From a virus (lineage: Duplodnaviria > Caudoviricetes): a stretch of 61,843 nt of DNA. Below, piece by piece: positions 16,724 through 40,875 of the stretch. Every line of letters starts with the position of its first letter. The stretch's first letter is position 1. The notes beneath the pieces are model-generated. The model searched no databases. It was not told where the DNA came from and saw only the letters and a list, made by a program, of their open reading frames with translations. The stretch lies in IMG/VR virus record IMGVR_UViG_3300027965_000203, positions 1-61,843 of that record, one strand, 5' to 3'. Position numbers and translations under genes: made by a program.

Positions 16724-17347
16724 ATGAAGCTCAAGCGTCTCTCGGCGCTCGCGGCCACGTGTGTTGTGGCCTTCGGCATCTACGCGGCGAACGCGGCCGG
16801 CCTTTGGTCGACGCTGCCGATCATCGGGGGCGCTTCCTATTGCGCTGCAGTTGTCGGCGCGGGCCCCTCGCAGGCCGGCGTCACCGGGCAGGGCGCCGGC
16901 TCTGTCGGCGGCTCGACCTATTGCGCCCAGACGGTTCCGGCGGGCCCCTCCGTCTTCGCCGGCACCGAGATGGTGCCGCTGGACATCTATACGCCCGGTC
17001 CGCAGGCATCGGCCCCTCCGACCACGGCGCTCGCGAATATCGTACAGCTCGGGCAGGGGCCGATGGTGGACGTGACCTCGCCCGTGACCGCGACCATCCC
17101 GGCGAACACGCCGTTCTATTTCCTCGATGGCGCGCAGGCCTCCGCCTTCACGATCACGATGCCGGCGGCCCCGATCGAGGGCTACATCCAGCGCATCACC
17201 TGCGCGGCCGCGACCGTCGGCGTCCTCACGGTCGCGGCGAACGCCAACCAATCGATCAAGAATAACCCGGCCGCGGCTTGCGTCGCCGGCGTCGGCTACG
17301 CCTGGCGCTATCAGGCGTCGAACACGACTTGGTATCGGTTCCAGTAA
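16724..17347 (+). CDS. Signal-peptide-bearing beta-rich protein (head fibre/decoration-like)
   Basis: ATG 16724 after AGGAG; MKLKRLSALAATCVVAFGIYAANA; C-terminal TITMPAAP.EG...WRYQASNTTWYR fibre-like domain; 4 Cys in the mature part. Confidence 0.7.
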   Translation: MKLKRLSALAATCVVAFGIYAANAAGLWSTLPIIGGASYCAAVVGAGPSQAGVTGQGAGSVGGSTYCAQTVPAGPSVFAGTEMVPLDIYTPGPQASAPPTTALANIVQLGQGPMVDVTSPVTATIPANTPFYFLDGAQASAFTITMPAAPIEGYIQRITCAAATVGVLTVAANANQSIKNNPAAACVAGVGYAWRYQASNTTWYRFQ

Positions 17348-17450
17348 TCCGATTCGGACAAGCTCCGCGGCCGGGGACGCCCGGCTTTGACGGCGCCGCG
17401 GCCCTACCTGCGGCGCGCGTGACGCGGACGTAGCAATGCGAGGGATCGTC

Positions 17451-17873
17451 ATGCTGGCGCGCCATGTCGTCCGAGCGCTTGCCGCGGCAGCGCTCGCGTG
17501 GTCGCTTGCTGGGCTCGCGGGCGCGCCTGCCCACGGCCAGGAGGCGACCTCTTTCCAAGGTCAATCCCAGGCAGCCGGCACGCTCAATAGCTCGGCCGTC
17601 ATCGCCACCGGGAACACCTTCCAGACGGTGCTGCCGGCGCTGACCTCGACGGCCTATCCCGGGACGCCGGCGCGCCGCTCGCTGACCATCAACAACAACA
17701 ACGCGACCGACAGCTGCTGGATTTTCATCGGCAGCGGCAGCGCGAGTAAGGGCGCGTCGATCCTGCTCACCGCGGGGCAGACCTATCGCCGCGATTGGCC
17801 CTACGTGCCCTCCGACGCGATCCAGGCCACCTGCACGACGACGAGCGACACGCTCTATGTCGACACCCAGTGA
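17451..17873 (+). CDS. Signal-peptide-bearing beta-sandwich protein (decoration-like)
   Basis: MLARHVVRALAAAALAWSLAGLAGAPAHG; RRSLTINN...WIFIG...SILLTAG pattern; 2 Cys. Confidence 0.7.
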   Translation: MLARHVVRALAAAALAWSLAGLAGAPAHGQEATSFQGQSQAAGTLNSSAVIATGNTFQTVLPALTSTAYPGTPARRSLTINNNNATDSCWIFIGSGSASKGASILLTAGQTYRRDWPYVPSDAIQATCTTTSDTLYVDTQ

Positions 17874-18423
17874 GGCGCCGGCAGCCGCCGGCGCCTCTCC
17901 GGGCAAAGCGGGCCGCCCGTCGCTCTACAGCCACGACCTTGCGGAGACGATCTGCCGCCTGATCGTCACCCCTGATCCTACGACGGGCCGCCCACAATCG
18001 GTGCGCTCGATCTGCCAGCGCGAGGACATGCCGCACCGCGACACGGTCTATGGCTGGCTTCTGGTGCACAAGGATTTCGCCGAGCTCTATGGCCGCGCCA
18101 TGGAGCTGCGCGCCGATCAGATGTTCGATGAGTGCCTGGACATCGCCGACGACGCACGGGGTGACTATCGCGTCGAGCCGCTCGGGGACGAGGGGATCGC
18201 GGTCGAGATCGTCGACAAGGAGAACATCGCCCGCGCGCGCCTGCGCATCGACACCCGCAAATGGATGGCGGGCAAGATGGCGCCGAAGAAGTACGGAGAT
18301 CGCCTGGTCAATGAGCACGTCGGCAAGAACGGCGGCCCGATCGAGACCAAGGACGTGACCGACGACAAGACGCGGGCCCGGGCGCTCGCTGCCTTCATCG
18401 CCAAAACTCGGAAGCGGGCCTGA
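17857..18423 (+). CDS. terS: Terminase small subunit (Sf6 gp1-like)
   Basis: GRPSLYS..LAETIC...SVRSIC..EDMP...TVYGWL...F...Y.RA...ARLRIDTRKWMAGKMAPKKYGD. Confidence 0.93.
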   Translation: MSTPSEAPAAAGASPGKAGRPSLYSHDLAETICRLIVTPDPTTGRPQSVRSICQREDMPHRDTVYGWLLVHKDFAELYGRAMELRADQMFDECLDIADDARGDYRVEPLGDEGIAVEIVDKENIARARLRIDTRKWMAGKMAPKKYGDRLVNEHVGKNGGPIETKDVTDDKTRARALAAFIAKTRKRA

Positions 18424-18424
18424 T

Positions 18425-20059
18425 GTGGGCGCGCTCGATGACCTCGAGGCCTATGTCGCGTCGCTGGACGAGACGCAAAAGGCGCAGCTCGACCAGCTGA
18501 TCGCCCCGGAGCTCGCCTCGATCTGGCTCCCCGAGCCGGACAACAAGCCGCAGTGTGAGGCCTACTGGTCGCTCGCGGACTTGCTGCTGTTCGGCGGGGG
18601 CGCCGGCGGCGGCAAGACCGATCTGCTCGCCGGCACGGCGCTGACCCAGCACCGACGGGCCGTCATCTTCCGGCGCCAAGCGGTCGATCTACGCGGCCTC
18701 GAGGACCGCATCATCGAAATTGCCGGCCGCGAGGGCTGGAACGGGGCGGATAAGATCCTGCGCCGGCCGCCCTGCGTGCTCGAGCTCGGCCACCTGCAGA
18801 AGCCGGGCGCCGAGCTCTCCTGGCAGGGCCGGCCGCACGATTTCTTCGGGTTTGACGAGGGCGCGCAGATCCCACGCGCCAAGGTGCAGTTCGTGCTGGG
18901 GTGGCTTCGCTCGGTCGACGGCAGCCAGCGCAAGCGGGCGATCATCGCGTCGAACCCGCCGACCGGCGGCGAGGGCGAGTGGCTGATCGAATGGTTCGCG
19001 CCCTGGCTCGATGAGCGCTTTCCGAACCCGGCAAAGCAGGGGGAACTGCGCTGGGCGGCGACCGCGCCGGACCGCGAGGGAACCACGATCTGGCTGCCGG
19101 ACGGCTCGCCGATCGTCTTCACGGGGCTCAAGGATTACCGCCCCGCCACGGCGGAAGAGATCGCGAGCAACGATGCGCGGGTGGTGCAGCCGCTGACGCG
19201 GACTTTCATCCAGTCGCTGCTCGACAACAATCCCTACCTCGCCAAGACGGGGTACCGGGCGCAGATCCAGAGCCTGCCGGAACCGCTGCGCTCGCAGCTG
19301 CTCAACGGCGATTTCGTGGTCGGGCGCAAGGACCATGAATGGCAGGTGATCCCGACCGCCTGGGTCAAGGCCGCGCAGGCACGCTGGACCGCGACCCCGC
19401 CGATCGGCGCGCAGATGACGGCGATCGGCGTCGACGTCGCCCAGGGCGGTGATGACTCGACCACGATCGCGCCGCGCTACGGCCCCTGGTACGCCGAGCT
19501 CGTCAAGCGACCCGGGATCGAGACGCCGCGGCCGTCCGATGTGGCCGGCCTGGTCGTGACGGTGCGTCGGCACAAGGCCGTCGTGATCGTCGACGTCGGC
19601 GGCGGCTACGGCGGCGGCGTCAAGGAGCGGCTGGAAGAGAACAACGTCGACGTGCGCCCCTTCAATGGCGCCGCCGAGTCGCAGGCGCGCACCAAGGACA
19701 AGCAGCTCGGCTTCCGCAACCTCCGGGCAGCGGCTTGGTGGGGTTTTCGCGAGGCGCTCGATCCGGATCAGGAGGGCGGCTCGCAGATCGCGCTGCCGCC
19801 GAGCCCGACATTGCTCGCGGACCTCACCGCGGTGCGCTGGAAGCTCTCTTCCGGCGGCATCCAGGTCGAGGACAAAGAGATCATCAAGAAAGCCGACCGG
19901 CTCGGCCGCTCGCCCGACGAAGGCGACGCGGTTGTGCAGGCCTGGGCGGAAGGCGAGCGCGCAATCGTCGCGAAGCTGCGCAAGGCGGCGCGCGGTGCGG
20001 CGCCCCCGCAGACCCCGGTGACCGTCGGCGAGCGCGGCGCCGGCTGGCTCGGCCGATAG
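18425..20059 (+). CDS. terL: Terminase large subunit
   Basis: GGGAGGGKT Walker A, FDEG Walker B, ASNPP, nuclease IGVDVAQGGDD and GRSPDEGDA. Confidence 0.95.
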   Translation: MGALDDLEAYVASLDETQKAQLDQLIAPELASIWLPEPDNKPQCEAYWSLADLLLFGGGAGGGKTDLLAGTALTQHRRAVIFRRQAVDLRGLEDRIIEIAGREGWNGADKILRRPPCVLELGHLQKPGAELSWQGRPHDFFGFDEGAQIPRAKVQFVLGWLRSVDGSQRKRAIIASNPPTGGEGEWLIEWFAPWLDERFPNPAKQGELRWAATAPDREGTTIWLPDGSPIVFTGLKDYRPATAEEIASNDARVVQPLTRTFIQSLLDNNPYLAKTGYRAQIQSLPEPLRSQLLNGDFVVGRKDHEWQVIPTAWVKAAQARWTATPPIGAQMTAIGVDVAQGGDDSTTIAPRYGPWYAELVKRPGIETPRPSDVAGLVVTVRRHKAVVIVDVGGGYGGGVKERLEENNVDVRPFNGAAESQARTKDKQLGFRNLRAAAWWGFREALDPDQEGGSQIALPPSPTLLADLTAVRWKLSSGGIQVEDKEIIKKADRLGRSPDEGDAVVQAWAEGERAIVAKLRKAARGAAPPQTPVTVGERGAGWLGR

Positions 20060-20081
20060 ATAGGTTTTGGCAGTCCCGAAC

Positions 20082-22262
20082 ATGGCCGACGATGACGACA
20101 ATCTCGCCGGCCTGACCGGCGATGACCGCATCGTCCAGGAGGCGCGCGACGACTTCAAGCGCTGGCTCGATTGGGAGAGCGACTGCCATAAGTGGTTCCG
20201 CGAGGACACGCGCTTCGCGAATGCGGATGCGAGGAACGGCCACCAGTGGCCGGACAAAATCTACCAGGACCGCGACAACGACGATCGCCCGTGTCTCACG
20301 ATCAACAAGACGCGCACGCACAACCGCATCATCATCAATGAGGCGATGGAGAACAAATCCTCCATCAAGATCAGGCCCACCGGCGGGGAGGCGAGCTACG
20401 AAGGCTCGCAGGTGATGCAGGCGATCATCCGCCGCATCGAGTACATCTCGAAGGCGACGATCGCGTACCGCAAGGCGATTACGGATCAGGTGACGGGCGG
20501 CTTCGGCTACATCACGCTGCGCACCGACTACGTCAACGACAAGAGCCGCGACCAGGATATCTACATCTGCCAGGTCCGCGACCCGCTCTGCGTCGGCCTC
20601 GACCCCGACGCGATCGAGCCGGACGGATCGGACGCGAATTTCGGGCTGATCTTCGAGAACCACCTGCGCAAGCGGTTCTTCCGCAACCCGAAGTACCGCA
20701 AATGGAAGGGCAAGATCGGCACGACAACGCTCGGCGCCGACCAGACCTGGCTCTCCGACACGCACATCAAGACGTGCATGTACTACCGCCGCACGGGCAA
20801 GAGCGACACGCTCGTGGTCTATACCGAGCCGCAGAGCGGCCAGCAGGTCAGCGTCTTCAAGTCCGAGCAGGAGCGGGAGCTGATCGAGCCGATCATTGCG
20901 CAAATTCAGGGCGGCGAGCTCGACGGCTATATCCGCGAGGACGTGATGCGCCAGTCGGTCGAATGGTTCCTGATCGCCGGCGACAAGGTCATCGACCGCG
21001 GCAAGTGGGCGGGCAAATACATCCCGATCATCCGCCTAGTCGGCGAGGAAGTCATCATCGACGGCAAGCTCGATCGCAAGGGCATGACGCGCTACCTGAT
21101 CGACCAGCAGCGCATGCTCAATTACAACGCCTCGGGCCAAGTAGAATTCGGCGCCCTGCAGTCGAAATCGCCCTGGGTCGGGCCGGCGCGCGCCTTCGAG
21201 GGCCAGGAGGCCTGGAAAGACGCCAATCGCAAGAACTACGCGTTCCTGCAGTACAATGACGTCGACGAAGACAATCCCGGGACCGCGATCCAGGCGCCGC
21301 AGCGCCAGCAGCCGCCGCAGACCTCGCCGGTCTATGCCGAAGGCATGGCCGACGCCGAGCGCCAGATGATGATGGCGTCGGGCCAGTACCAGACCAAGAT
21401 GGGGGAAGAGGATCAGCAGGCTGCGGCCTCGGGCCGCGCCATCAACGCGCGCCAGCGGCAGGGGGACGTCGCGACCTATCACTTCATCGAGCATCAGGGC
21501 GACATGTACCGGTTCACCGGCATGCAGCTGCTCGACCTGATCCCGAAAATCTACGACACCGAGCGCACCCTGCACGTGCTCGGCGAGGACGGGACCAAGC
21601 GCTGGATCAAGATCGACCCCGACTCGAAGCAGGCCGTCACCGAGCTCAAAAAGGAGACCGAAGAGGCGGCCGAGCTCGCGTTCAACCCGTCGATCGGCGA
21701 ATACGACTGCATGGCCGATGTGGGCCCGAACTACGCCACCCAGCGGCAGGAAGCCTGGAACGCCATCACCATCATCCTGCAGCAGAATGCCCAGCTCGCC
21801 GGCATCATCGGCGATCTCCTGTTCAAGTTCGGCGACTTCCCGGGCGCGGACGAGATCATGGAGCGCCTCAAGCGCGAGATCCAGGCGACCAAGCCCTACC
21901 TCTTCTCCAAGGATGCCGACCCGGGCATGGTCGCGCTGCAGCAGCAGGTGCAGAAGCTCGGCGCCCTCAATGGCGAACTCATGCACAAGCTCGCCGAGAT
22001 GCAGTTGACGCTACGCGGCAAGGACGAGAAGCGCGGCGTCGAGGCCTACAACGCCGAGACGAACCGCATCCACAAGCTCGGCGTCACCGCCAAGGACCTG
22101 GGCTACGACGTGCTCGCCCCGGCGATCCGGCAGGTGCTCTCGGAAATGCTCGGCCATCCGCTGACCGGCGAGGATCACGCCATCCAGGGCGCGATCGATC
22201 TCGATGCGCACATGCGCGAGGCGCCGCCGCCGGCCGACTCCGCGCCCGAGGGCGCCGCATGA
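20082..22262 (+). CDS. Portal protein (P22 gp1-like)
   Basis: GHQWP...RPCLTINK, SGRAINARQRQGD, DVGPNYATQRQEA; follows terL. Confidence 0.93.
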   Translation: MADDDDNLAGLTGDDRIVQEARDDFKRWLDWESDCHKWFREDTRFANADARNGHQWPDKIYQDRDNDDRPCLTINKTRTHNRIIINEAMENKSSIKIRPTGGEASYEGSQVMQAIIRRIEYISKATIAYRKAITDQVTGGFGYITLRTDYVNDKSRDQDIYICQVRDPLCVGLDPDAIEPDGSDANFGLIFENHLRKRFFRNPKYRKWKGKIGTTTLGADQTWLSDTHIKTCMYYRRTGKSDTLVVYTEPQSGQQVSVFKSEQERELIEPIIAQIQGGELDGYIREDVMRQSVEWFLIAGDKVIDRGKWAGKYIPIIRLVGEEVIIDGKLDRKGMTRYLIDQQRMLNYNASGQVEFGALQSKSPWVGPARAFEGQEAWKDANRKNYAFLQYNDVDEDNPGTAIQAPQRQQPPQTSPVYAEGMADAERQMMMASGQYQTKMGEEDQQAAASGRAINARQRQGDVATYHFIEHQGDMYRFTGMQLLDLIPKIYDTERTLHVLGEDGTKRWIKIDPDSKQAVTELKKETEEAAELAFNPSIGEYDCMADVGPNYATQRQEAWNAITIILQQNAQLAGIIGDLLFKFGDFPGADEIMERLKREIQATKPYLFSKDADPGMVALQQQVQKLGALNGELMHKLAEMQLTLRGKDEKRGVEAYNAETNRIHKLGVTAKDLGYDVLAPAIRQVLSEMLGHPLTGEDHAIQGAIDLDAHMREAPPPADSAPEGAA

Positions 22263-22525
22263 CCGATATCGTCGATGAACTGGCCATTATCGCCAAGGAC
22301 GGCGGGCGCCTCTCGCCACGCGATTGTGCGCTGATCGCGCGCGCCGCCGCCGAGCTCGAGCATACGAGCGCGCTGCTGATCAAGACGCAGGCCGCGATGC
22401 TGGAAGCGCAGGCGAAGCAGCTTGCGACCGCGGAACGCTTGCTCGAGCAAAGGCGGCCAGCCCTCGCGCATTGGCACGGCACGTTCGTGTGGCCGGCCGG
22501 CAACTGGAGCATCCCATGCCGCTGA
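22259..22525 (+). CDS. Hypothetical protein
   Basis: ATGA coupling to the portal gene. Confidence 0.5.
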   Translation: MTDIVDELAIIAKDGGRLSPRDCALIARAAAELEHTSALLIKTQAAMLEAQAKQLATAERLLEQRRPALAHWHGTFVWPAGNWSIPCR

Positions 22526-22968: not shown

Positions 22969-22979
22969 GAGAATGTCGC

Positions 22980-24054: not shown

Positions 24055-24074
24055 GAACCTGACGGGTCCCTCCT

Positions 24075-33299: not shown

Positions 33300-35447
33300 A
33301 TGGCTGACACGGTCACGCCGACCCCGCCGTCGCAGGATCAGATCAACGACGTCCTCGCCCGCTATGGCGTCGGGCCCGGTCCCTCGACCGTGGTGGCGCC
33401 GGCCTCGAGCGATGACGCCGCGCAGGTGCTGCAGCGCTACGGCGTCACGCTCAATCCGAAGGCGCCCGTTGCGCCGACGGCGGACAGCGACGCCGCCGCG
33501 CGCGGGCTCGTGGTGCCTGGCACCAACGATGATCTCGCCAAGGTCAAACCGGGCAGCAAATTCAAGTTCGAGGCGGGGGAGTATTTCACTCCGCAGGAGG
33601 TCAAAAGCGGCCTCAACCGCGGCATTGGCTCTCAGTTCGTCAATGGCATTCCGATCGTCGGGCCGGCCTTCAATGCGCTCACCGCCGAGATCAATCCCGG
33701 GGCGCCGACGTTCGGCCAGCGCTTCTATGATCAGCAGGCGGCGGATCGTGCATACGCGGCGCTGCACCCGGCGCTTTCGACCGGCGCGAATGTCGCCGGC
33801 AGCCTCGTCGGTTATGGCGGCATCGCGCGAGCCGCGCCGGCGCTTCTCGGGCTCTCGGGCCCGACGACGGGCGCGCGCATCTACCAAGGCATTGCGGGCG
33901 GCGGCGGCCTCAACGCGCTCGACGCCATCCTGCGCGGCGAGAATCCGATCCCTGCCGCGACGATTGGCGCGGTGAGCGGCGGCATTGCGCCGGCGGCGGG
34001 GGCGGTCAGCGAGGGCGCCGCCAATGCGGCGGCACGCCTCGCCTGGCCGCGCCCGAACGCGCTCGCCGGCGTTCCGCGTTCCGGCATCAACGTGCTGACC
34101 AATGCACTCGCGGGCGAGACGCCGTCCTCGATCGCGGCCGCGGTCGATCGCATGGGGCCGGCCGGCGTCTTCGCCGACCTCAACCCGCGCACCACCGATA
34201 TCGCCGGTGCCATCTCCGACCTGCCGATCGCGGAGCGCACCGCGATCCAGAATGCCTATCGCGCGCGCGCCGCCGCGGCGCCCCAGCGCGTCGATGCGGC
34301 GCTCACCAAGGCGACGGGCGTCCCGGGCGGTATCAACGTCGTGCAATATGCCGATTGGCTCGATCAGCAGCGCTCGGCTGCCGCGGGACCGCTCTACGAT
34401 CAGTTCCGCAGTATGAGCGTGCAGCCGACGCCAAAACTGACCCAGGATATCATTCCGCGACTGGAGAAAGCTGGCGCGTTCGAGCGTGCCGAGTACCTCG
34501 CCGGCATCACGGGTCAGAAGATCGATCGCGCCAATATGACGCCTGCGCAATACGATCTCGTCAAGCAGGGCCTCGATAGCAAGATCGACCAGGCATACGC
34601 CAATGGCGACAAGACGGTCGGCTCGAAACTCGTGGCATTGAAAAACGATCTCATCGACGAGATCGGCCAAACCAATGCCGGCCAGGTCTGGAATAAGGCG
34701 CGTCAAACTTTCGCTGATCGCAGCAACGTCATCGATCAGCTCGAGGCCGGCTACAACACCCCGCTTGGCGGCCGCTCGGCGCAGAGCGTCGACGAGTTCG
34801 AGCAGGAGTGGAACGGCCTTTCCCGTCCCGAGCAGATCGCCCGCACCATGGGCTGGCGCAAGATGATTGCGGAGACAATGGGCGAGCCCGGCAATGCAGC
34901 CAGCATCACCCGCGGCAAGCTGCTCTCGCCGAACAACCAGGCGAAGATGCGCATCATGTTCGGCGACCAGAAAGCCGATGAGCTGATCGGCACGCTGCAG
35001 CAGGAAAAGGACTTCGCCGACCGCCTGCCGGCCGTGATCCCCAACTGGAATACGGGCGCGAGCGCGCAGACGCGCGCGGAACGCATGCAGATGTTCGCGC
35101 CGCCGACCAATGCGCTCTCGTCCTGGACGCCGGGTCTCGACCTGACCAACCCGCTGCACGTCGTTCCGTCGGCGCTGCGGCCCGGGACGGTGGCGCAGGA
35201 TTTCGCGATGGCGCGCGCCGGCCGTGTGCCGCCATCGCTGGTGCCGATCCTGCTCACCCCGCAAGCGCAGGTGCCCGACGTGGCCGACGCGATCATGTCG
35301 GAAGGCAATCGTCTCGCGAAGACGTCTAGCCTCGTCAGGAACTATGTGGCGCGTCCGGCACAGTTCGCCATCGCCGGCCCGGGCCAGGCCGAGTACCGTC
35401 GGCGCTACGAGCTCGCGCAGCCTCTGCAGCCGCCCACTGGCCCGTAA
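33300..35447 (+). CDS. Putative DNA ejection protein (gp16 position)
   Basis: 715 aa, Gly/Ala-rich hydrophobic segment then a helical region; synteny. Confidence 0.7.
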   Translation: MADTVTPTPPSQDQINDVLARYGVGPGPSTVVAPASSDDAAQVLQRYGVTLNPKAPVAPTADSDAAARGLVVPGTNDDLAKVKPGSKFKFEAGEYFTPQEVKSGLNRGIGSQFVNGIPIVGPAFNALTAEINPGAPTFGQRFYDQQAADRAYAALHPALSTGANVAGSLVGYGGIARAAPALLGLSGPTTGARIYQGIAGGGGLNALDAILRGENPIPAATIGAVSGGIAPAAGAVSEGAANAAARLAWPRPNALAGVPRSGINVLTNALAGETPSSIAAAVDRMGPAGVFADLNPRTTDIAGAISDLPIAERTAIQNAYRARAAAAPQRVDAALTKATGVPGGINVVQYADWLDQQRSAAAGPLYDQFRSMSVQPTPKLTQDIIPRLEKAGAFERAEYLAGITGQKIDRANMTPAQYDLVKQGLDSKIDQAYANGDKTVGSKLVALKNDLIDEIGQTNAGQVWNKARQTFADRSNVIDQLEAGYNTPLGGRSAQSVDEFEQEWNGLSRPEQIARTMGWRKMIAETMGEPGNAASITRGKLLSPNNQAKMRIMFGDQKADELIGTLQQEKDFADRLPAVIPNWNTGASAQTRAERMQMFAPPTNALSSWTPGLDLTNPLHVVPSALRPGTVAQDFAMARAGRVPPSLVPILLTPQAQVPDVADAIMSEGNRLAKTSSLVRNYVARPAQFAIAGPGQAEYRRRYELAQPLQPPTGP

Positions 35448-35617: not shown

Positions 35618-37345
35618 ATGCCGATGCCGATCCAGAAATCGACGCCGAAGAGGTGGACGAACTGCATGGCTGTCCTCGCGACCGCCATCCTATTCGCCTG
35701 CGCGCTCATTGGCCATGCCCATGCGGCCGCCACCCTTCTCCCCCCGGGGGAAAACTGCTTCCAGGCGACCACCGGCATCAACGGCATGGTCGGCACGCTC
35801 GGCACCATCACGGGCGGCACGGGCGGCACCAACGGCACCTATTCGGGCGTGGCGCTCACCGGCGGGTCCGGGAGCGGCGCGACCGCCAATATCACGGTAT
35901 CGGGCGGCGCCGTCACGGCGATCGCGATCCTCTCCCCCGGCACGCAATACGTGGTCGGCGACACGCTTTCGGCCGCCTCCGGCTCAATCGGCAACGTCAC
36001 CGGCTTCTCGGTCCCGGTCGCCTCGGTCGCGATCAATTCCTCGCTCGCCGGCGGATCCGTCTATTTCTACATCCCGAACACGACCACGTTCAAACAGACC
36101 TGGTCGAACGCGACCCAGACGGTCCTCAACCCGAATCCGGTCATCCTCGATCAGAACGGCTGCGCCGTCATCTACGGCACCGGCACCTATCGGCAGGTCC
36201 TCAAGGATCAGCTCGGCAACACGGTCTGGGATCAGACCACGACCGACACGAGCGCCACCAACAGCACATTTTGGGCGGGGCTCGCCGGCGGGACGCCGAA
36301 CGTCATCACGGTCGTCGACCCGGGCTTCAATGCGACCGACGGATCGATCGTCAATTTCACGGCGCTCGCGACCAATACGTCGGCCGCGACGCTCAACCCG
36401 TCGAGCTTCGGCGCGATCCCGATCCTCAAGGATACGACGGCCGGCCCGGTCGCGCTGACCGGCGGCGAGATCGTCCAGAGCAATCCGATCTCGGCCATCT
36501 TCCGCGCGACCGACAATGCGTTTCATCTGCTCAATACCGTCATCGCCTCGGCGAGCGGCACGACGGCGCCGCTCTGCGGCGCGACCAATCTCACCATCGG
36601 CAATAACGGGGCCAACCCGAACTCCATTCTGAGCATCCTCGCCGACCAGGTGGTGATGCAGACGACGGCCGGCATCACGGTCAATCGCTCGAACGTCACG
36701 CTCGGGCTGATCAACATCACCACCGGCAACTCGGTCGCGACCGCGAACGGCATGGATGGGGAGGCCCCCGGCACGAGCGGCTGGCTCTACATCTGGGCGA
36801 TCGACAACGGCGGCGGCGCGGCCGGCCTCGTGTCCACCGCATCGGGCAACGGCCTCAATCCGACGCTGCCGAGCGGCTACACCTACAAGTGCCGCTTGGG
36901 CGCGATGCGGGTCGATGGCAGCGGAAATCTGCTGCGCACGCTCCAGCACGGCAACGTCGCGCAATATCAGGTGACCGGGGGCGGCACGCTGCCGCTCATC
37001 ACCAATGCGTTCGGCACTTATTGGACTGGACAACCGATCTCGTCTTTCGTGCCGCCGACCGCGGCGGCGATCAATACCGCGTTCCGCGCCGTCCTCTCGG
37101 CCAACTTTGGAGGCACCGCAACGGAGGCAGCAGCGGTCGCGCCGAATGGCGGCTACGGCGCCGCCCCATCAAGTGCGCCGTGTGCACAATCGCTCAACAA
37201 TGGTGCATCAGGCGCAATCGCTACCGACAACACGATGATCTGCAGCTTCGTGCTCGAAAGCACGAACCTCTTCACCGGCAACACATCGGCTTCGGCGGCC
37301 ACCCTGAGCGCGCTCGGCTGGCGGGATGCTGTCAATGCGAATTGA
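35618..37345 (+). CDS. Tailspike/tail fibre with a P22-type head-binding-like domain, preceded by a signal peptide
   Basis: LAGGSVYFYIPNTTTFKQTW...NPNPVILDQNG.AVIY...Y...LKDQLGNTVW; N-terminal MAVLATAILFACALIGHAHA; start 35618, 35624 or 35666. Confidence 0.78.
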   Translation: MPMPIQKSTPKRWTNCMAVLATAILFACALIGHAHAAATLLPPGENCFQATTGINGMVGTLGTITGGTGGTNGTYSGVALTGGSGSGATANITVSGGAVTAIAILSPGTQYVVGDTLSAASGSIGNVTGFSVPVASVAINSSLAGGSVYFYIPNTTTFKQTWSNATQTVLNPNPVILDQNGCAVIYGTGTYRQVLKDQLGNTVWDQTTTDTSATNSTFWAGLAGGTPNVITVVDPGFNATDGSIVNFTALATNTSAATLNPSSFGAIPILKDTTAGPVALTGGEIVQSNPISAIFRATDNAFHLLNTVIASASGTTAPLCGATNLTIGNNGANPNSILSILADQVVMQTTAGITVNRSNVTLGLINITTGNSVATANGMDGEAPGTSGWLYIWAIDNGGGAAGLVSTASGNGLNPTLPSGYTYKCRLGAMRVDGSGNLLRTLQHGNVAQYQVTGGGTLPLITNAFGTYWTGQPISSFVPPTAAAINTAFRAVLSANFGGTATEAAAVAPNGGYGAAPSSAPCAQSLNNGASGAIATDNTMICSFVLESTNLFTGNTSASAATLSALGWRDAVNAN

Positions 37346-40343
37346 ACGCGCCATTCGCGCCATCGCGGCGCTGCTGCTGCTCGTCTCGGCCGCCATCGCG
37401 CAGCAGCCTTATAGCAAATCAGCGCTCACGTCGCAGATCGGGCAGGATTTCCCTGACCAGAATGCCGGCGCGATCACGCCCGCCATCCTGCGCGGCTTCC
37501 TCACCAACGCGGTCAATTCCTCGCAGCAATACGCCGGCGTCAACGCGCAGGTCGGCACCAGCTACACGGTGCAGGCGAGCGACTACGGCCAGCTCATCAC
37601 CTTCAACAATGCCGGCGCGGTCGCGGTCACCTTGCCGCAGACGGTCGCGGGAACGTTCACGTTCTACCCATTCAGCTTCTATGTGAGGAACCTCGGCGCC
37701 GGCACGGTGACGATCACGCCGCAGAACGGCTCGACCATCAACGGCGCCGCGAGCCTCGCGATCACGCAAGGCGTCAATGCCATCGTGATCTCGGATGGCG
37801 CCAATTACCAGGTGTTCGGCGCACAGGGCTTCTCGCCGGGCGGCTCCGGGATCATCATCAACGGCGGCAGCGCCTATCTCAATTCCTCGGTGCCCTATCT
37901 CGGCACGGGGAGCTGCAATGGCTGCGGCCCGCTGGCGATGGAGAGCGCCGGCCCCGGCGCCTTCTGGCACGAGACCGACCAAAACCCCTACGAGACCGGG
38001 ACCGCGCAGGCCGGCACGTCCACCACGATCACGCTCGCGTCGCGCTCGTGCACGCCCGTCAATGGCATCACCGCCATGGGCTGCGGGGCCGGCGACTACG
38101 TGTCGTCGGTCCTCACCATCACGGGCGGCACCGGGCTCGGGCAGAAGTTCCAGGTTTCGGCGGTATCGCCGGGCACCAGCCCGGTTCTCACGATCTCGGG
38201 CACGTTCTCGCCGGCGCCGGACTCGACCAGCGTCTATGCGCTCGGCCGCATCGACTACGGTTGGTGGCGTCTCATCTGCGACGGCAATGCCTGCTACTTC
38301 GAGGACTGGGAGGCCTGCAACCCGCTCACGGCCACCTTCCCGGCCAATCTCGAGGATTGCCAGGACGAGTTCTGGCGGGTCATGCGCGTGCCGACGAACA
38401 CGCCGCTCGCCGCCAACCACATCATCGGGTTCAACTATCCGATCTATGGCAACGGCAACCGCGACTGGCACATCGGCGCCAACTGGGCGGACCCACACCA
38501 GCCACAGACCGCACGTAACCTCGATTTCGACGCGCTCAACACGTCGACCAATCAGATGGTCACGGCGATGCAGCTCGTGCCCAACGGCGCGAACCCGCAG
38601 ATCATCGTCTCTTCCGTATCGCCGTTCTGTTTCGTCAGCTGCTCGGGCACGAACAATCTCGGCGCGCTCGCCAACAATTCGTTCGTCGGAAACGTCTCGG
38701 GCAGCACCGGCCCTGCGATCGGCGTGCCCAAGCAGGCTGCCTTCGACGGCATGGCGCCGGCGCCCACGCGGGCAGGCGACATCATCTATTGGAATGGCAC
38801 GCACTGGGTAAATTTCGCCGGCAACAATTCCGGGACGAGCTGCCTCAGCGAGACCTCATCCGGGGTGCCCGGATGGTCGGCCTGCTCGGGCGGCAGCGGG
38901 ACGCCGGGCGGATCGAATACGCAGCTGCAATACAATTCGTCCGGCGTGTTCGGTGGCATCACGGGCGTCACCAGCAACGGCACCAATGTCACGATCGCGT
39001 CGGGCGATCTCCTGCTCGGCGGCGCGACGTCGGGCACGACCACGCTCAACGCGAGCGGCACCGCCTCGGGCACCGCAACGCTGCCGGCGAACACTGGCAC
39101 GATCGCCGAGCTGAACCTTGCCCAGACTTGGTCGGCGCCGCAGACCTTCAACAACAACGACCTGCTACTTGCCGGCTCATCGTCCGGCACGACCACGCTC
39201 AACGCGAGCGCGACGGCATCGGGCACCGCAACGCTGCCGGCGAACAGCGGCACGGTTGCTGAGGTCAACTTCGCCCAGACTTGGTCCGCGGCGCAGACGT
39301 TCAACAATAACGATCTCCTGCTGGCGGGGTCTTCGTCCGGCACGACCACGCTCAATGCCAGCTCGATCGCCTCGGGCACGCTCACGCTGCCGGCCGCGAC
39401 CGATACGCTCATCGCGCGCGCGACGATCGACACGCTCACCAACAAGACCTACGACACCGCCGGCACCGGCAATTCGTTCAAGATCAACGGCACCTCGATC
39501 GCGGCCGTCACCGGCACCGGATCGGTCGTGCTCGCGACCTCGCCGACGATCAGTGGTGCGACGCTCTCCGGCACCACGAACGCGAGCGGCACGTTCCAGA
39601 TCGGCGGCTTCACGATCGGGGCCACCTCGGCGACATCGATCGGCGCCGGCCAGTACCAGGGCACGGCGACCAACGACAACGCGACCGCCGGCAACATCGG
39701 TGAATTCACCTCGACCATCACGCAAAAGACGAGCGCGACGGTCACGATCAGCAATGCGTCGCCGGGCATCATCTCGTGGACCGCGCACGGGCTCGGCGTC
39801 GCGTCGTCGGTGAGCTTCACCACGACCGGCTCCCTGCCGACCGGCTTGAGCCCATCGACCAATTACTATGTCTGCTCCGGCTCGACTTATCAGACCAACA
39901 GCTTCGCGGTCGCGACCAGCCCCGCCAATGCGCTCGCCGGCACGTGCATCAATACCTCTTCGGCGGGATCCGGCACCCAGACCGGCACGGCGGGCGCGAT
40001 CCTTACCGCAGGCAATCCGGACAGCGTGTCGGCCATCAGCCTCACGGCCGGCGACTGGCAGGTCTGTGCGGGAGCCGCATACACGGGCGGCGCGACCACG
40101 ACCGCGACCTATATCGAGGCGGGTCTTTCGACCACAACCAATACGCTCGACACGACGCCCGGCCGGTTCGTGATCATTCCCGCGTTCAACTCGACGCCCT
40201 TCTCACAGGCCGATGTCGGCCTGTTCGTATGCGATCGCTTCAGCCTGTCCGGTACGACCACGATCTTCCAGATCGCGCAGTCCTCGTTCGGGACGAGCAC
40301 GATGAGCGCCTACGGTAAGCTTTGGGCAAGGCGGATGCGGTAA
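37335..40343 (+). CDS. Long tail fibre/adhesin-like protein with a signal peptide
   Basis: MRIERAIRAIAALLLLVSAAIA; Ser/Thr/Gly-rich beta modules (SYTVQASD.G..ITFN...VTLP; TLPAATDTL...TLTNKT; SISLTAGDW); 16 Cys. Confidence 0.78.
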   Translation: MRIERAIRAIAALLLLVSAAIAQQPYSKSALTSQIGQDFPDQNAGAITPAILRGFLTNAVNSSQQYAGVNAQVGTSYTVQASDYGQLITFNNAGAVAVTLPQTVAGTFTFYPFSFYVRNLGAGTVTITPQNGSTINGAASLAITQGVNAIVISDGANYQVFGAQGFSPGGSGIIINGGSAYLNSSVPYLGTGSCNGCGPLAMESAGPGAFWHETDQNPYETGTAQAGTSTTITLASRSCTPVNGITAMGCGAGDYVSSVLTITGGTGLGQKFQVSAVSPGTSPVLTISGTFSPAPDSTSVYALGRIDYGWWRLICDGNACYFEDWEACNPLTATFPANLEDCQDEFWRVMRVPTNTPLAANHIIGFNYPIYGNGNRDWHIGANWADPHQPQTARNLDFDALNTSTNQMVTAMQLVPNGANPQIIVSSVSPFCFVSCSGTNNLGALANNSFVGNVSGSTGPAIGVPKQAAFDGMAPAPTRAGDIIYWNGTHWVNFAGNNSGTSCLSETSSGVPGWSACSGGSGTPGGSNTQLQYNSSGVFGGITGVTSNGTNVTIASGDLLLGGATSGTTTLNASGTASGTATLPANTGTIAELNLAQTWSAPQTFNNNDLLLAGSSSGTTTLNASATASGTATLPANSGTVAEVNFAQTWSAAQTFNNNDLLLAGSSSGTTTLNASSIASGTLTLPAATDTLIARATIDTLTNKTYDTAGTGNSFKINGTSIAAVTGTGSVVLATSPTISGATLSGTTNASGTFQIGGFTIGATSATSIGAGQYQGTATNDNATAGNIGEFTSTITQKTSATVTISNASPGIISWTAHGLGVASSVSFTTTGSLPTGLSPSTNYYVCSGSTYQTNSFAVATSPANALAGTCINTSSAGSGTQTGTAGAILTAGNPDSVSAISLTAGDWQVCAGAAYTGGATTTATYIEAGLSTTTNTLDTTPGRFVIIPAFNSTPFSQADVGLFVCDRFSLSGTTTIFQIAQSSFGTSTMSAYGKLWARRMR
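39005..39400 (+). repeat. Internal ~153-bp (51-aa) tandem repeat in the tail fibre, about 2.6 copies
   Basis: DLLL.G.SSGTTTLNAS..ASGT.TLPA occurs three times, AQTWSA.QTFNNN twice. Confidence 0.85.
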
Positions 40344-40354
40344 GGAGCTGGTCG

Positions 40355-40612
40355 ATGCGCCATATTGCTTTGATCCTCATGCTCGCTCTCGCCGCAGCCG
40401 CCCGGGCCGATGACCTCGACCATGCGGCGCAGGTCTGCGGCGAGCATCAGACGCGCGTCGTGACACAGGGCCCGCAACACGTGCCGCTGATCGATTACGG
40501 CCAGGGCTTCGAAAACTGCACCGCCGTCATCCAGAAGTGGCGCGAGCGCCAAACCAGCCGGTCGGCGAAGGACAAGGCCGACCAGGACCTCATCAACAGG
40601 ATGGCCAAATGA
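40355..40612 (+). CDS. Small exported protein (possible fibre chaperone)
   Basis: AGGAG RBS; MRHIALILMLALAAAARA; 2 Cys. Confidence 0.65.
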   Translation: MRHIALILMLALAAAARADDLDHAAQVCGEHQTRVVTQGPQHVPLIDYGQGFENCTAVIQKWRERQTSRSAKDKADQDLINRMAK

Positions 40613-40875
40613 AACGCGCTCTTCTGCTCTCAGTGCTCGTCTTCGCCGGATCCGCGCATGCCGTCGAGCTCAAGCTCGATCAGAGCTGGATCCCGAAGCT
40701 TGGGCAGTTGTGTCAGGCGGCCACATATGGCTCGCGCATGACGGCCGAGCCGATCTGCAACGAGCTTGGCCAGGTCGTGGCGCGCGCCAATGCGGCCGAG
40801 GCCGCCGCTAAGGCCGAGGCGACGAAGAAGCCGACTGCCACGAAAGAGCCGGCTGCAGCTCCAGCGAAACCCTAG
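40609..40875 (+). CDS. Small exported protein (possible fibre chaperone)
   Basis: ATGA coupling; MKRALLLSVLVFAGSAHA; 2 Cys; Ala/Lys/Pro tail. Confidence 0.65.
   Translation: MKRALLLSVLVFAGSAHAVELKLDQSWIPKLGQLCQAATYGSRMTAEPICNELGQVVARANAAEAAAKAEATKKPTATKEPAAAPAKP

What the first reader, a model, noticed from the sequence alone, without database searches (positions are those of the whole stretch)
16724..40875. Virion appendage proteins appear to be Sec-exported and disulfide-bonded: candidate two-compartment phage assembly
Seen: seven late-region ORFs start with a classical signal peptide (hydrophobic core, small residues at -3/-1, usually a basic N-region): 16724, 17451, 27551, 35618, 37335, 40355 and 40609. 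Counted by hand, their mature regions all have an even number of Cys (4, 2, 4, 6, 16, 2, 2), often as local pairs. The set includes the tailspike-like and tail-fibre-like genes. Terminase, portal, scaffold, coat, adaptor and hub lack such leaders. Known: tailed-phage virions normally assemble entirely in the reducing cytoplasm, and P22 tailspike has no signal peptide. Inference: receptor-binding and decoration proteins are exported, folded by DsbA, and added to capsids in the periplasm or at lysis. Alternatively they serve as surface or secreted factors of the lysogen.
Basis: partly seen in the sequence, partly recalled or inferred. Interest (0 to 1): 0.9.

Follow-up and report, generated by a model that had tools for sequence, protein, structure and literature searches.

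The report
Phage tail fibres carrying export signals
A P22-like prophage, and a large uncultured group of related phages, put secretion signals and paired cysteines on the fibres that should dock onto the virus tail, which suggests those parts fold outside the cytoplasm and join the particle only around lysis.

Summary
All seven ORFs have signal-peptide-like N-termini and the stated mature Cys counts (4, 2, 4, 6, 16, 2, 2). Terminase, portal, scaffold, coat, adaptor, hub and ejection proteins have no such leader.

Seven of about 35 ORFs is not above the genome background of my heuristic (13-22%). What stands out is which proteins carry leaders. For 27551, 35618 and 37326 the leader holds across families: 92 of 100, 112 of 120 and 101 of 120 homologues.

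In the 35618 family the leader is variable (18% identity), followed by A-x-A and a conserved mature end (58%). SP-less relatives, including Pseudomonas phage PAE2, start with Met at that same point. Cys columns appear and vanish in pairs. The C47/C182 pair occurs only in leader-bearing forms (35 vs 0 of 27).

The mature N-terminus of 35618 models as the P22 tailspike head-binding domain (Z 8.7). 27551 models as a T4 gp9/gp10-like domain (Z 9.4-11.8). Both tailspike forms sit in the same slot of homologous P22-like tail modules.

Best reading (about 0.5): Sec-exported, disulfide-bonded virion appendages that join cytoplasmic particles at lysis. This is unproven. I found no related cultured phage and no paper describing it.

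The parts
16724..17347 (+). ORF of 207 aa with a leader (about residues 1-24, nt 16724-16795) and 4 mature Cys. Unassigned, and lies upstream of the small terminase gene.
   Evidence: AGGAG lies 8 nt upstream. No Pfam or PHROG match. Not found in 400 other genomes of the order or in 103 loci. Atlas leads only: viral clusters and depolymerase-C/Mtd_N-like folds.
17436..17873 (+). ORF of 145 aa (140 aa from the likelier start 17451) with a leader and 2 mature Cys. Unassigned.
   Evidence: One homologue, in L027 directly after the tailspike gene, also has a leader and 2 Cys. The Atlas places it nearest to viral clusters.
17857..25325 (+). Leaderless head module: TerS 17857-18423, TerL 18425-20059, portal 20067-22262, scaffold 22650-23819, coat 24075-25325.
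   Evidence: PHROG hits. All score no-SP.
26783..27541 (+). Head-tail adaptor (Ad3, P22 gp4-like), no leader.
   Evidence: A homologue is present in 54 of 103 loci.
27551..28042 (+). ORF of 163 aa. Leader (residues 1-25, nt 27551-27625), linker, then a T4 gp9/gp10-like beta-sandwich (residues 52-163). 4 mature Cys in two co-varying pairs (69/92, 149/159).
   Evidence: 92 of 100 homologues with a leader; Z 11.8 to Solidus gp83, 9.4 to CBA120 TSP4, 8.2 to T4 gp9. Lies between Ad3 and hub in related loci.
28250..29791 (+). Tail hub (Hc3, P22 gp10-like), no leader.
   Evidence: A homologue is present in 72 of 103 loci.
29792..35447 (+). Leaderless ORFs in the needle and ejection-protein positions: 29792-30229, 30444-31394, 31391-31930, 31893-33299, 33300-35447. 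They hold 0-1 Cys each.
35618..37345 (+). Receptor-binding fibre of 575 aa in the tailspike slot. Leader residues 1-36 (nt 35618-35725), cleavage predicted at AHA|AATLLPPGENCF. Then a P22-type head-binding domain (about residues 37-215) with an inserted Gly-rich domain (about 50-142), a fibre domain (217-312), an RBP-like domain (316-441) and a lectin-like tip (448-570). 6 mature Cys.
37326..40343 (+). Second fibre of 1005 aa, overlapping the end of 35618. Leader about 25 aa (nt 37326-37400), mature end QQPYSKSALTSQI..., conserved N-terminal domain (about residues 26-200), three shaft repeats of about 47 aa, 16 Cys.
   Evidence: 101 of 120 homologues with a leader; even Cys in 87 of 95; +1 residue is Gln in 69 of 95. 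An N-domain homologue follows the tailspike gene in related loci.
40355..40612 (+). ORF of 85 aa, leader about 18 aa, 2 mature Cys. Unassigned.
   Evidence: AGGAG upstream. No family hit. No homologue in the loci.
40609..40875 (+). ORF of 88 aa, leader about 18 aa (AHA|VE), 2 mature Cys. Its start overlaps the stop of 40355. Unassigned.
40976..40990 (.). GC-rich hairpin followed by a T run, the only + strand terminator-like site in 26500-43200. Probable end of the late transcript.
   Evidence: consensus scan only.
42553..45339 (+). Lysis-side genes: GH108 endolysin 42553-43134, class-3 lipase/esterase 43144-43782, and two further leader-bearing ORFs at 43798-44559 and 44596-45339.
   Evidence: A homologue of 44596 follows the endolysin in L033.

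Best explanation
The window holds a P22-like temperate podovirus. Its tail appendages are a receptor-binding fibre with a P22-type head-binding domain (35618), a second long fibre (37326) and a small gp9/gp10-like beta-sandwich protein (27551). All three are made as precursors with cleavable Sec (signal peptidase I) leaders.

Proposed mechanism:
1. The chains are translocated unfolded into the periplasm.
2. The leader is cut at A-x-A. This exposes the same N-terminus (A-A/T-T-L-L-P...) that leaderless relatives have after the start Met.
3. The chains fold, trimerise and gain structural disulfides in the periplasm.
4. Heads with portal, adaptor, hub and ejection proteins are built and filled in the cytoplasm.
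5. The two sets meet when the holin and endolysin break the barrier, or in the lysate. The head-binding domain then docks on the adaptor/hub junction.

In P22, tailspike attachment is the last step and needs no energy (recalled, not from a call).

Shown here: the leaders, their family-wide conservation, the junction with leaderless forms, the paired Cys co-variation, the virion-type folds and the conserved slot.

Inferred: export in vivo, cleavage, disulfide formation, incorporation into virions, and the timing of joining.

The four small leader-bearing ORFs may be periplasmic helpers or unrelated cargo. They are not assigned.
For: (1) Leaders are conserved as a property, not as sequence.
- 112 of 120 homologues of 35618, 101 of 120 of the 37326 N-domain and 92 of 100 of 27551 carry one.
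- In the 35618 family, 110 of 120 hold the motif. The -1 site is A/G/S in 99 of 110 and the -3 site is A/G/V/S/T in 103 of 110.
- Leader identity is 18% against 58% for the next 25 residues (n=60).

(2) Leaderless relatives start where the mature protein should.
- 27 of 92 N-domain copies, including the tailspike ORF of Pseudomonas phage PAE2, start Met-A-T-L-L-P-N-G at the predicted mature end.
- The same holds for 27551 relatives P0308, P0323, P0324 and P0327.

(3) Cysteines behave as disulfide pairs.
- Mature Cys count is even in 106 of 110 (35618 family) and 87 of 95 (37326 family), and is 4 or 2 in 85 of 92 (27551 family).
- Cys columns come and go together: 320/425 are both Cys in 47 rows, one alone in 0, neither in 4. 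Pairs 362/403, 466/554, 524/542 and, in 27551, 69/92 and 149/159 behave alike.
- The C47/C182 pair occurs in 35 leader-bearing copies and in 0 of 27 leaderless copies.
- Among 142 further representatives, 56 are leader+Cys and 0 are leaderless+Cys.
- Leaderless relatives have 0-12 Cys with 18 even (9 of them zero) and 11 odd. Leader-bearing ones all have at least 2, with 46 even and 7 odd.

(4) The folds are virion-type.
- Model residues 35-215 of 35618 match the P22 tailspike head-binding domain (1lkt_A Z 8.7, rmsd 3.0, 88 aa). They also match P22 hub:tailspike complexes (8tvr Z 8.1, 8u10 Z 8.4), Sf6 gp14N (Z 8.2) and the cyanopodophage Pan3 tail complex (Z 9.9).
- 27551 matches CBA120 TSP4, T4 gp9/gp10 and other appendage chains at Z 7.6-11.8. 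The next-best unrelated chain scores Z 6.1 or lower.

(5) Same slot, same machine.
- Leader-bearing and leaderless tailspikes both lie 7-9 kb downstream of homologous hub/adaptor genes. A hub homologue is in the locus for 51 of 59 leader-bearing copies and 24 of 31 leaderless copies.
- No other large leaderless receptor-binding candidate exists in this prophage.

(6) Compartment coherence within a phage.
- The next large ORF after the tailspike has a leader in 29 of 36 evaluable leader-type loci. By eye, 3 more do where the heuristic missed it.
- It has one in only 2 of 18 leaderless-type loci.

(7) Late-operon placement.
- Gene overlaps and tight spacing: 37326 overlaps 35618, 40355 starts 12 nt after 37326 ends, and 40609 overlaps 40355.
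- No + strand terminator-like site until 40976.

(8) The host genome has 7 DSBA-family matches.
Against: - There is no experimental datum of any kind: no RNA run was listed, no cultured relative was found, and so no virion proteomics exists.
- The signal-peptide call rests on my own heuristic, which also flags 13-22% of genome ORFs.
- The tree gives few independent events. Leader state changes 5 times on the best tree but only 1 change is forced by well-supported branches. The Cys pair changes 5 times, with 2 forced. The independent-pairs test had no power. The leader/Cys association is therefore largely clade structure.
- 18 leader-bearing copies lack the C47/C182 pair, though they hold other Cys.
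- Mixed phages exist. L052 and L037 have a leader on the tailspike but not on the 27551 homologue. L075 and L082 have a leaderless tailspike with a leader-bearing second fibre.
- Joining at or after lysis would dilute the partners, and no tailed phage is known to do this.
Confidence: 0.5

Rival explanations
1. The proteins are exported but do not serve as virion parts. They act in the envelope or on the surface of the producing cell. Possible roles are surface fibres (as in Bdellovibrio MAT proteins), glycan-modifying or glycan-binding proteins (as in Pantoea WceF), or receptor-masking or receptor-destroying factors that block superinfection and stop progeny sticking to debris. A mixed version is possible, where most copies are exported for such a role and a minority joins virions.
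For: - Precedents: all 21 MAT fibres have a signal peptide followed by a conserved N-terminal domain of about 130 aa, a trimeric fibre and variable tips (PMC10769870, passages read). The 37326 family has the same layout.
- WceF is a Tat-exported tailspike-like trimer (PMC7949094, passages). Its N-domain aligns to the 35618 model at Z 5.2.
- The tip of 35618 resembles the Bd2133 fibre tip at Z 6.5.
- Some 37326-type homologues lie on very large contigs, one of them a 6.4 Mb genome.
Against: - 35618 keeps a P22-type head-binding domain and the exact N-terminus of leaderless virion tailspikes. A purely cellular protein has no need of these.
- The genes sit in the tailspike slot of a complete P22-like late operon, overlapping or tightly spaced with their neighbours. 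They would be made only in a cell about to lyse.
- No leaderless receptor-binding protein is left to equip the virion.
- The leaders have no twin-arginine motif, so this is not the WceF route.
Confidence: 0.22
2. The leader is not used for export during lytic growth. The proteins stay in the cytoplasm and assemble in the usual way. The hydrophobic N-terminus would then have another role, such as a transient inner-membrane tether, a brake on premature assembly, or a membrane-active segment at infection. The Cys pairs would oxidise only after release.
For: - All known tailed-phage assembly is cytoplasmic (recalled). A preprint makes the same point for the P22 tailspike (10.64898/2026.09.13.751334, figure legend read).
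- The 27551-type leaders are long (about 20 hydrophobic residues) and more conserved in sequence than a plain signal peptide, so they could be membrane anchors.
- Virion proteins can in principle oxidise after lysis (inference).
Against: - Small residues at -3/-1 are kept in 99 and 103 of 110 sequences while the rest of the leader drifts to 18% identity. That fits signal peptidase recognition, not a structural helix.
- The mature end coincides with the start of leaderless homologues.
- Paired Cys occur only in leader-bearing lineages and never in the 27 leaderless copies. If oxidation after release were enough, leaderless forms should have them too.
Confidence: 0.15
3. Annotation artefact or decayed element. 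Either the true starts lie downstream of the hydrophobic stretch, or the prophage is defective and the leaders are meaningless.
For: - High-GC DNA gives many alternative starts.
- The genome comes from an assembly of 54 contigs, and only DNA runs labelled 'soil metagenome' hold the stretch. There is no evidence of induction.
Against: - The block right after the leader is conserved at the protein level and has no start codon at the junction. The next in-frame start in 35618 is 56 codons in.
- Leaders recur in hundreds of independent contigs, among them IMG/VR contigs of 30-60 kb with full late modules.
- All core genes here are intact open frames.
Confidence: 0.03

Closest known systems
Phage P22 / Sf6 tailspike (gp9 / gp14) with its N-terminal head-binding domain docking on gp4-gp10
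   Same: - Same gene slot after the ejection proteins in a P22-like module with Ad3 (gp4-like) and Hc3 (gp10-like) genes.
- The N-terminal domain of 35618 matches the P22 and Sf6 head-binding domains at Z 8.0-8.7.
- It has a conserved N-terminal anchor with variable distal parts.
   Different: - It carries a cleavable-type Sec leader and 6 paired Cys.
- A Gly-rich domain of about 95 aa is inserted in the head-binding domain.
- The distal part models as a fibre with a lectin-like tip. No solved beta-helix spike appeared among the matches to it.
- Sequence identity to P22 gp9 N-term is only 15-17% in the structural alignments, and there is no Pfam hit.
Leaderless tailspikes of the same N-domain family, e.g. 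Pseudomonas phage PAE2 (OK041467, + strand ORF 14864-16873, unannotated in the record)
   Same: The N-terminal motif (T-L/Q-L-P-N-G-x-Q-x-F) and N-domain are homologous, and they sit in the same slot behind homologous hub and adaptor genes.
   Different: PAE2 and 26 other copies start with Met directly at the motif. They have H/Q/T/R instead of Cys at position 47 and E/R/Q at position 182.
Bdellovibrio bacteriovorus MAT (mosaic adhesive trimer) fibres
   Same: Same layout: signal peptide, then a conserved N-terminal domain, then a long trimeric fibre with swappable tips that include S74 chaperone and TNF-like or beta-sandwich domains (PMC10769870). Some 37326 relatives carry PF13884. The 35618 tip resembles the Bd2133 tip at Z 6.5.
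   Different: MAT genes are chromosomal and the fibres sit on the predator's own surface. Here the genes lie in a phage late operon, and 35618 has a virion-docking domain.
Pantoea stewartii WceF
   Same: It is an exported protein with a tailspike-like fold and an N-domain resembling the tailspike N-domain (6tgf_F Z 5.2; PMC7949094).
   Different: WceF uses a Tat signal, so it is exported folded. It is a beta-helix glycanase and lies in an exopolysaccharide gene cluster, not in a prophage.
Phage proteins already known to use host export: filamentous-phage coat proteins, spanins, SAR endolysins, and morons such as lambda Lom and Bor (recalled, not from a call, except that the spanin disulfide paper appears in a reference list)
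   Same: These are phage-encoded proteins with signal sequences or signal anchors. Some depend on periplasmic disulfides.
   Different: None is a structural part of a tailed-phage virion. Filamentous phages assemble at the membrane by extrusion, not by lysis.

Membership tests
Sec / signal peptidase I signal peptide | Basic n-region, uncharged hydrophobic h-region, small residues at -3 and -1 | tested here: met
   All seven ORFs pass my heuristic. In the 35618 family, -1 is A/G/S in 99 of 110 and -3 is A/G/V/S/T in 103 of 110. SignalP was not available.
Sec / signal peptidase I signal peptide | The property is conserved while the sequence drifts, and the mature end is conserved | tested here: met
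   Leader identity is 18% against 58% for the first 25 mature residues. Leaders are present in 112 of 120, 101 of 120 and 92 of 100 homologues. This was tested for 3 of the 7 ORFs only.
Sec / signal peptidase I signal peptide | Actual translocation and cleavage | not testable with these tools
   Needs PhoA fusions or N-terminal sequencing.
Tat signal peptide | Twin-arginine motif in the n-region | tested here: not met
   None of the seven leaders contains RR (sequences).
Lipoprotein (signal peptidase II) signal | Lipobox ending in a conserved Cys at +1 | tested here: not met
   The Cys inside the 35618 leader is not conserved in homologues. The other leaders have no lipobox.
P22-like podovirus morphogenetic module | TerS, TerL, P22-type portal, scaffold, coat, gp4-like adaptor, gp10-like hub and ejection proteins, in that order | tested here: met
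   PHROG hits from E 1e-6 to 3e-90. The coat is 50.6% identical to the P22-type coat of phage PAE2. The order is conserved in related loci.
P22 tailspike head-binding domain (gp9 N-terminal domain) | The fold of the N-terminal dome domain | tested here: met
   1lkt_A Z 8.7 (rmsd 3.0, 88 aa), 2vky Z 8.7, 8u1o Z 8.5, 8u10 Z 8.4, 8tvr Z 8.1, all over model residues about 35-215. Model mean pLDDT is 82.7. These Z values lie only just above the 7-8 that the tool calls common.
P22 tailspike head-binding domain (gp9 N-terminal domain) | Binding to the gp4/gp10 junction of the virion | not tested
   No complex prediction was run. Homologous adaptor and hub genes are present.
P22 tailspike (whole protein) | Trimeric right-handed beta-helix with endoglycosidase activity | tested here: inconclusive
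   Matches to residues 217-570 were fibre, RBP and lectin-type domains, and no solved beta-helix spike matched that part. Parts of a 575-residue model are weakly tested.
T4 gp9/gp10-like beta-sandwich (as in the N-terminal part of CBA120 TSP4) | Fold of the domain | tested here: met
   For 27551 residues 52-163: 24qj Z 11.8, 7rfo_C Z 9.4, 9f4a_LS Z 9.3, 1qex_A Z 8.2, 5iv5_AC Z 7.6. All ten best matches but one are phage appendage chains, then Z drops to 6.1. Foldseek E 4e-5.
T4 gp9/gp10-like beta-sandwich (as in the N-terminal part of CBA120 TSP4) | Serves as a docking platform for other fibres | not tested
   Inference from position between adaptor and hub genes only.
Bdellovibrio MAT fibres | Signal peptide, conserved N-terminal domain, trimeric fibre and variable tip | tested here: inconclusive
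   The layout matches for the 37326 family. Homology of the N-domain was not testable. The tip similarity of 35618 to Bd2133 is Z 6.5.
Moron (independently expressed lysogenic-conversion gene) | Own promoter and terminator, variable presence, not part of the conserved structural gene order | tested here: not met
   For 27551, 35618 and 37326: conserved synteny, gene overlaps, and no flanking + strand terminator-like site (a weak consensus scan). For 16724, 17451, 40355 and 40609 the test is inconclusive. They are rare and not syntenic.

The most novel reading that the evidence does not exclude
A widespread, so far uncultured lineage of P22-like phages, whose named related genome contigs are mostly Alpha- and Betaproteobacteria, builds its virion in two compartments. 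DNA-filled particles with hub are made in the cytoplasm. The receptor-binding fibres, and in many members a gp9/gp10-like beta-sandwich protein, are Sec-exported, leader-cleaved and disulfide-bonded in the periplasm. They dock through a P22-type head-binding domain only when lysis merges the compartments. This would be the first tailed-phage assembly pathway that crosses a membrane. It may also be the phage source of exported cellular fibres such as the Bdellovibrio MAT family.
Probability: 0.5. Interest if true: 0.92.

Novelty: new variant of a known kind. Interest (0 to 1): 0.8.

Why it matters
Textbook tailed-phage assembly is wholly cytoplasmic. If these fibres really mature in the periplasm, several things follow.
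- Virion completion would depend on Sec, signal peptidase, Dsb enzymes and the lysis programme. Those would be new host-dependency and defence points.
- It would explain how soil phages obtain disulfide-stabilised receptor-binding proteins.
- Any recombinant production of such fibres would need periplasmic expression.
- Annotation pipelines that treat a signal peptide as evidence against a structural role would need changing.
- It gives a plausible evolutionary bridge between phage fibres and exported cellular fibres (MAT proteins, WceF).

The family is large: 6337 representatives at 50% clustering match the N-terminal part at E <= 0.001. This is therefore not a single-genome oddity.

Tried and rejected
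- Single-protein scans for related loci found nothing. The alignment-based scans worked.
- Pfam gave nothing for the seven ORFs beyond two sub-threshold hits on 27551. PHROGs gave only weak tail-fibre hits for 35618 and 37326.
- The phage record collection (50,697 records) holds no full-length relative of 35618. It holds only domain-level hits for the 37326 N-part and none for 27551. No cultured phage of this type could be used.
- PDB sequence searches found only a spurious antibody hit for A1 and nothing for 37326.
- hhalign of the 27551 family against 16724 and 17451 found nothing. Against the 37326 N-part it was weak (probability 72%, 39 columns).
- 16724 had no credible homologue in 400 other genomes of the order.
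- The independent-pairs test on the tree had no power.
- No RNA holder was listed for the stretch, so expression could not be examined.
- NCBI-sourced homologues carried no names.
- Complex prediction was not run. A hub plus a trimer of the head-binding region exceeds the size limit, and a pass would lean on solved P22 complexes.
- Seven literature searches and passages of seven papers showed no description of a signal peptide on a tailed-phage tailspike or fibre. Supplementary files were not consulted.
- I considered spanins for 40355 and 40609 and rejected them. Neither has a lipobox, and they lie inside the late operon before the terminator-like site, away from the endolysin.

Full report
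**What is there.** The window is 64-70% G+C. From about 17.8 to 35.4 kb on the + strand it carries a P22-like podovirus late module. The genes are small and large terminase, portal, scaffold, coat, an Ad3 (gp4-like) adaptor, an Hc3 (gp10-like) hub and ejection-type proteins (PHROG hits). A GH108 endolysin and a class-3 lipase lie further right. Early-type genes (methylase, helicase, HTH repressor) lie on the minus strand to the left. The element sits inside a contig of more than 600 kb of a 7.3 Mb genome. The closest deposited phage by coat protein is Pseudomonas phage PAE2, at 50.6% identity.

**Checking the observation.** Translation of the seven ORFs shows a basic start, an uncharged hydrophobic run and small residues before a polar mature part in each. 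My own heuristic (SignalP was not available) calls all seven. It calls none of the head, adaptor, hub or ejection proteins. Start codons are ambiguous for three ORFs (17436/17451, 35618/35624/35666, 37326/37335), but every choice keeps the leader. Two more leader-bearing ORFs lie outside the stated range, at 43798 and 44596. The number of leaders alone means little, because the same heuristic flags 12.7-22% of 4936 genome ORFs. What matters is which proteins carry them.

**Family-level evidence for real signal peptides.**
- 35618 has 908 scored relatives. Of the 120 listed, 112 pass the heuristic at the annotated start. Most of the 8 exceptions are start miscalls.
- In the 110 of 120 that hold the conserved N-terminal motif, the residue three before the Thr of "TLLP" is A/G/S in 99. 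The residue five before is A/G/V/S/T in 103. The residue between them is variable. This is an A-x-A site directly in front of A-A/T-T-L-L-P.
- Leaders are 18% identical pairwise, against 58% for the next 25 residues (n=60).
- The N-terminal 220 residues of 37326 have 239 scored relatives. Of the 120 listed, 101 carry a leader. The residue after the predicted cut is Gln in 69 of 95.
- 27551 has 100 relatives, 92 with a leader.

**A natural experiment.** I fetched 103 loci that encode relatives of 35618 (plus PAE2) and found 92 copies of its N-domain. Of these, 53 have a leader ending next to the motif. Another 27 start with Met directly at the motif (M-A-T-L-L-P-N-G-K-Q-Q-F). The remaining 12 were unclear to the script, and six of those show a leader by eye. 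PAE2 belongs to the leaderless class. Its 669-aa + strand ORF at 14864-16873 is not annotated in the record. So the predicted mature end of the leader-bearing forms is the natural N-terminus of the leaderless ones. The 27551 family shows the same pattern: P0308, P0323, P0324 and P0327 start at the predicted cut.

**Cysteines.**
- The Cys in "QCF" (position 47) and the Cys at 182 occur together in 35 leader-bearing copies and in 0 of the 27 leaderless copies. The leaderless copies have Q/T/H/R at 47 and E/R/Q at 182.
- Among 142 further representatives from an exhaustive HMMER search, 56 are leader+Cys, 7 leader without Cys, 8 leaderless without Cys and 0 leaderless with Cys. Another 16 had a motif the script could not class, and 55 had no motif in the first 90 residues.
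- Other Cys columns also appear and disappear in pairs. Columns 320/425 are both Cys in 47 rows, one alone in 0 and neither in 4. Pair 362/403 gives 4/0/0/47, pair 466/554 gives 5/0/1/45 and pair 524/542 gives 10/0/1/40. In the 27551 family, 69/92 gives 20/0/0/25 and 149/159 gives 22/0/0/23.
- Mature Cys counts are even in 106 of 110 (35618 family) and 87 of 95 (37326 family), and are 4 or 2 in 85 of 92 (27551 family).
- As a control, 29 distinct leaderless tailspikes have 0-12 Cys, 9 of them none, with 18 even and 11 odd. The 53 distinct leader-bearing ones all have at least 2, with 46 even and 7 odd. Some of these are cut by contig ends.
- Caveat: on a quick tree of the N-domain, the leader state needs 5 changes but only 1 is forced by well-supported branches. 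The Cys pair needs 5, with 2 forced. The independent-pairs test has no power. The association is real but is in large part clade structure. The Cys pair is nested inside leader-bearing clades.

**What the proteins are.**
- An AlphaFold2 model of 35618 (mean pLDDT 82.7) was compared with the PDB.
  - Residues 35-215 match the head-binding domain of the P22 tailspike (1lkt_A Z 8.7, rmsd 3.0, 88 aligned). They also match P22 in-situ hub:tailspike complexes (8u10 Z 8.4, 8tvr Z 8.1), Sf6 gp14N (Z 8.2) and cyanopodophage tail complexes (9vyg_o Z 9.9, 7eeq_A Z 8.6). The match begins at the predicted mature N-terminus.
  - Residues 217-312 match a Pa193 tail-fibre chain (Z 9.6).
  - Residues 316-441 match the lactococcal p2 receptor-binding protein (Z 5.3).
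  - Residues 448-570 match jelly-roll or TNF-like lectin domains and the tip of the Bdellovibrio fibre Bd2133 (Z 6.5).
  - It is therefore a short receptor-binding fibre with a P22-type docking domain, not a beta-helix spike.
- The model of 27551 (pLDDT 84.5) has a helical leader, a linker and a beta-sandwich at residues 52-163. The sandwich matches phage appendage chains: Solidus gp83 Z 11.8, CBA120 TSP4 N-terminal part Z 9.4, a KP1 baseplate chain Z 9.3, T4 gp9 Z 8.2 and T4 gp10 Z 7.6. After these, Z drops to 6.1 and lower.
- Relatives of the 37326 N-domain carry typical swappable fibre ends: PF13884 endosialidase chaperone, PF12708, PF13229 and PF21882.

**Context in relatives.**
- The order Ad3, 27551-type gene, hub, small ORF, ejection proteins, 35618-type gene, 37326-type gene, lysis genes recurs in IMG/VR contigs.
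- Among the 103 loci, homologues are present as follows: hub 72, Ad3 54, 27551-type 28, and any part of 37326 in 20.
- Leader-bearing and leaderless tailspikes use the same slot behind homologous hubs. A hub homologue is in the locus for 51 of 59 leader-bearing and 24 of 31 leaderless copies.
- Within one phage the appendages tend to share the state. The next large ORF after the tailspike has a leader in 29 of 36 evaluable leader-type loci, and three more (L031, L084, L093) show one by eye. In leaderless-type loci it has a leader in 2 of 18.
- Exceptions exist. L052 and L037 have a leader on the tailspike but none on the 27551 homologue. L075 and L082 show the reverse for the second fibre.
- In the window, 37326 overlaps 35618, 40355 starts 12 nt after 37326 ends, and 40609 overlaps 40355. 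The first + strand terminator-like hairpin comes at 40976. These are late-operon genes, not self-contained morons.

**Most likely mechanism.** I read the three proteins as virion appendages that are exported by Sec and cut by signal peptidase I to expose the docking N-terminus. They would be folded and disulfide-bonded in the periplasm, and added to cytoplasmic, DNA-filled particles when lysis merges the compartments. This is physically plausible. In P22, tailspike attachment is the last, spontaneous step and can be done in vitro with purified parts. Canonical holins also open very large inner-membrane lesions shortly before the outer membrane fails. Both statements are recalled, not from a call. 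The host has DSBA-family genes (7 matches). Every step from export onward is inference. I put this at about 0.5.

**Rivals.**
- (a) Exported, but for a cellular or envelope role: surface fibres, glycan modification, or receptor masking or destruction. Precedents are the Bdellovibrio MAT fibres, where all 21 have a signal peptide followed by a conserved N-terminal domain (PMC10769870, passages), and the Tat-exported tailspike-like WceF (PMC7949094, passages). I put this at 0.22.
- (b) The leader is not used for export in the lytic cycle (0.15). The conserved -3/-1 sites, and the restriction of Cys pairs to leader-bearing lineages, count against this.
- (c) Artefact or decay (0.03).

**The four small ORFs.** 16724, 17451, 40355 and 40609 remain unassigned. 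17451 has one relative, with a leader and 2 Cys, placed right after the tailspike in L027. 16724 was not found elsewhere. The Atlas puts both nearest to viral clusters, which is a lead only. 40355 and 40609 sit where fibre chaperones often lie, but nothing supports that beyond position.

**Novelty.** No deposited phage among 50,697 records holds these leader-bearing families. Seven full-text searches, and the passages I read, gave no report of a signal peptide on a tailed-phage tailspike or fibre. One preprint states the usual view that the P22 tailspike needs none. Supplementary files were not seen. The proteins are a new variant of a known kind, the P22-type receptor-binding protein. The assembly route, if confirmed, would be new for tailed phages. 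The family is large: 6337 representatives match at E <= 0.001, 2028 at E <= 1e-10 and 106 at E <= 1e-30. The looser counts include matches to the inserted Gly-rich domain alone.

Noticed in passing
L001 (OK041467) 14864-16873, + strand: The GenBank record of Pseudomonas phage PAE2 annotates small minus-strand ORFs (PAE2_16, PAE2_17) here. A 669-aa + strand ORF with a tailspike N-domain fills the gap and is probably the real tailspike gene.
   Followed up: partly
window 42553-45339: A class-3 lipase/esterase (43144-43782) directly follows the GH108 endolysin. It is followed by two leader-bearing ORFs (43798, 44596). A 44596 homologue also follows the endolysin in L033. This may be an outer-membrane-disrupting lysis accessory. 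No spanin pair was recognised.
   Followed up: partly
window 35765-36040 (residues about 50-142 of 35618): A Gly-rich domain (GGSG...ATANITVSGG.VTAV.ILNPG..Y) is inserted inside the head-binding domain. The same unit recurs up to 13 times in giant proteins (P0347, 1604 aa) and occurs in Bacteroidota genomes.
   Followed up: no
window about 39000-39500 (37326 residues about 560-720): Three tandem repeats of about 47 aa (LLLAGSSSGTTTLNAS...TLPAN.GT.AE.N.AQTWSA.QTFNNND) form the presumed shaft of the long fibre. They were seen in the translation only.
   Followed up: no
L052, L037; L075, L082: Mixed phages. L052 and L037 have a leader on the tailspike but not on the 27551-type protein. L075 and L082 have a leaderless tailspike with a leader-bearing second fibre. 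These are natural test cases for whether parts from two compartments can join.
   Followed up: partly
window 40976-40990: A perfect GC hairpin with T runs on both strands (a bidirectional terminator-like site) lies right after 40609. It separates the fibre genes from a poorly coding stretch (41.0-42.5 kb) in front of the endolysin.
   Followed up: no
window 57161-61843, minus strand (open at the window end): An ORF of more than 1560 aa with Ig-like repeats (PF23197, PF13927). Beside it are a large methylase-domain protein (52270-54888) and an ATP-dependent DNA ligase (46551-47264). It is unclear whether these belong to the prophage.
   Followed up: no
window 29792-35447: The leaderless ORFs in the needle and ejection-protein positions hold 0-1 Cys each, in contrast to 6 and 16 in the two fibres.
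   Followed up: no
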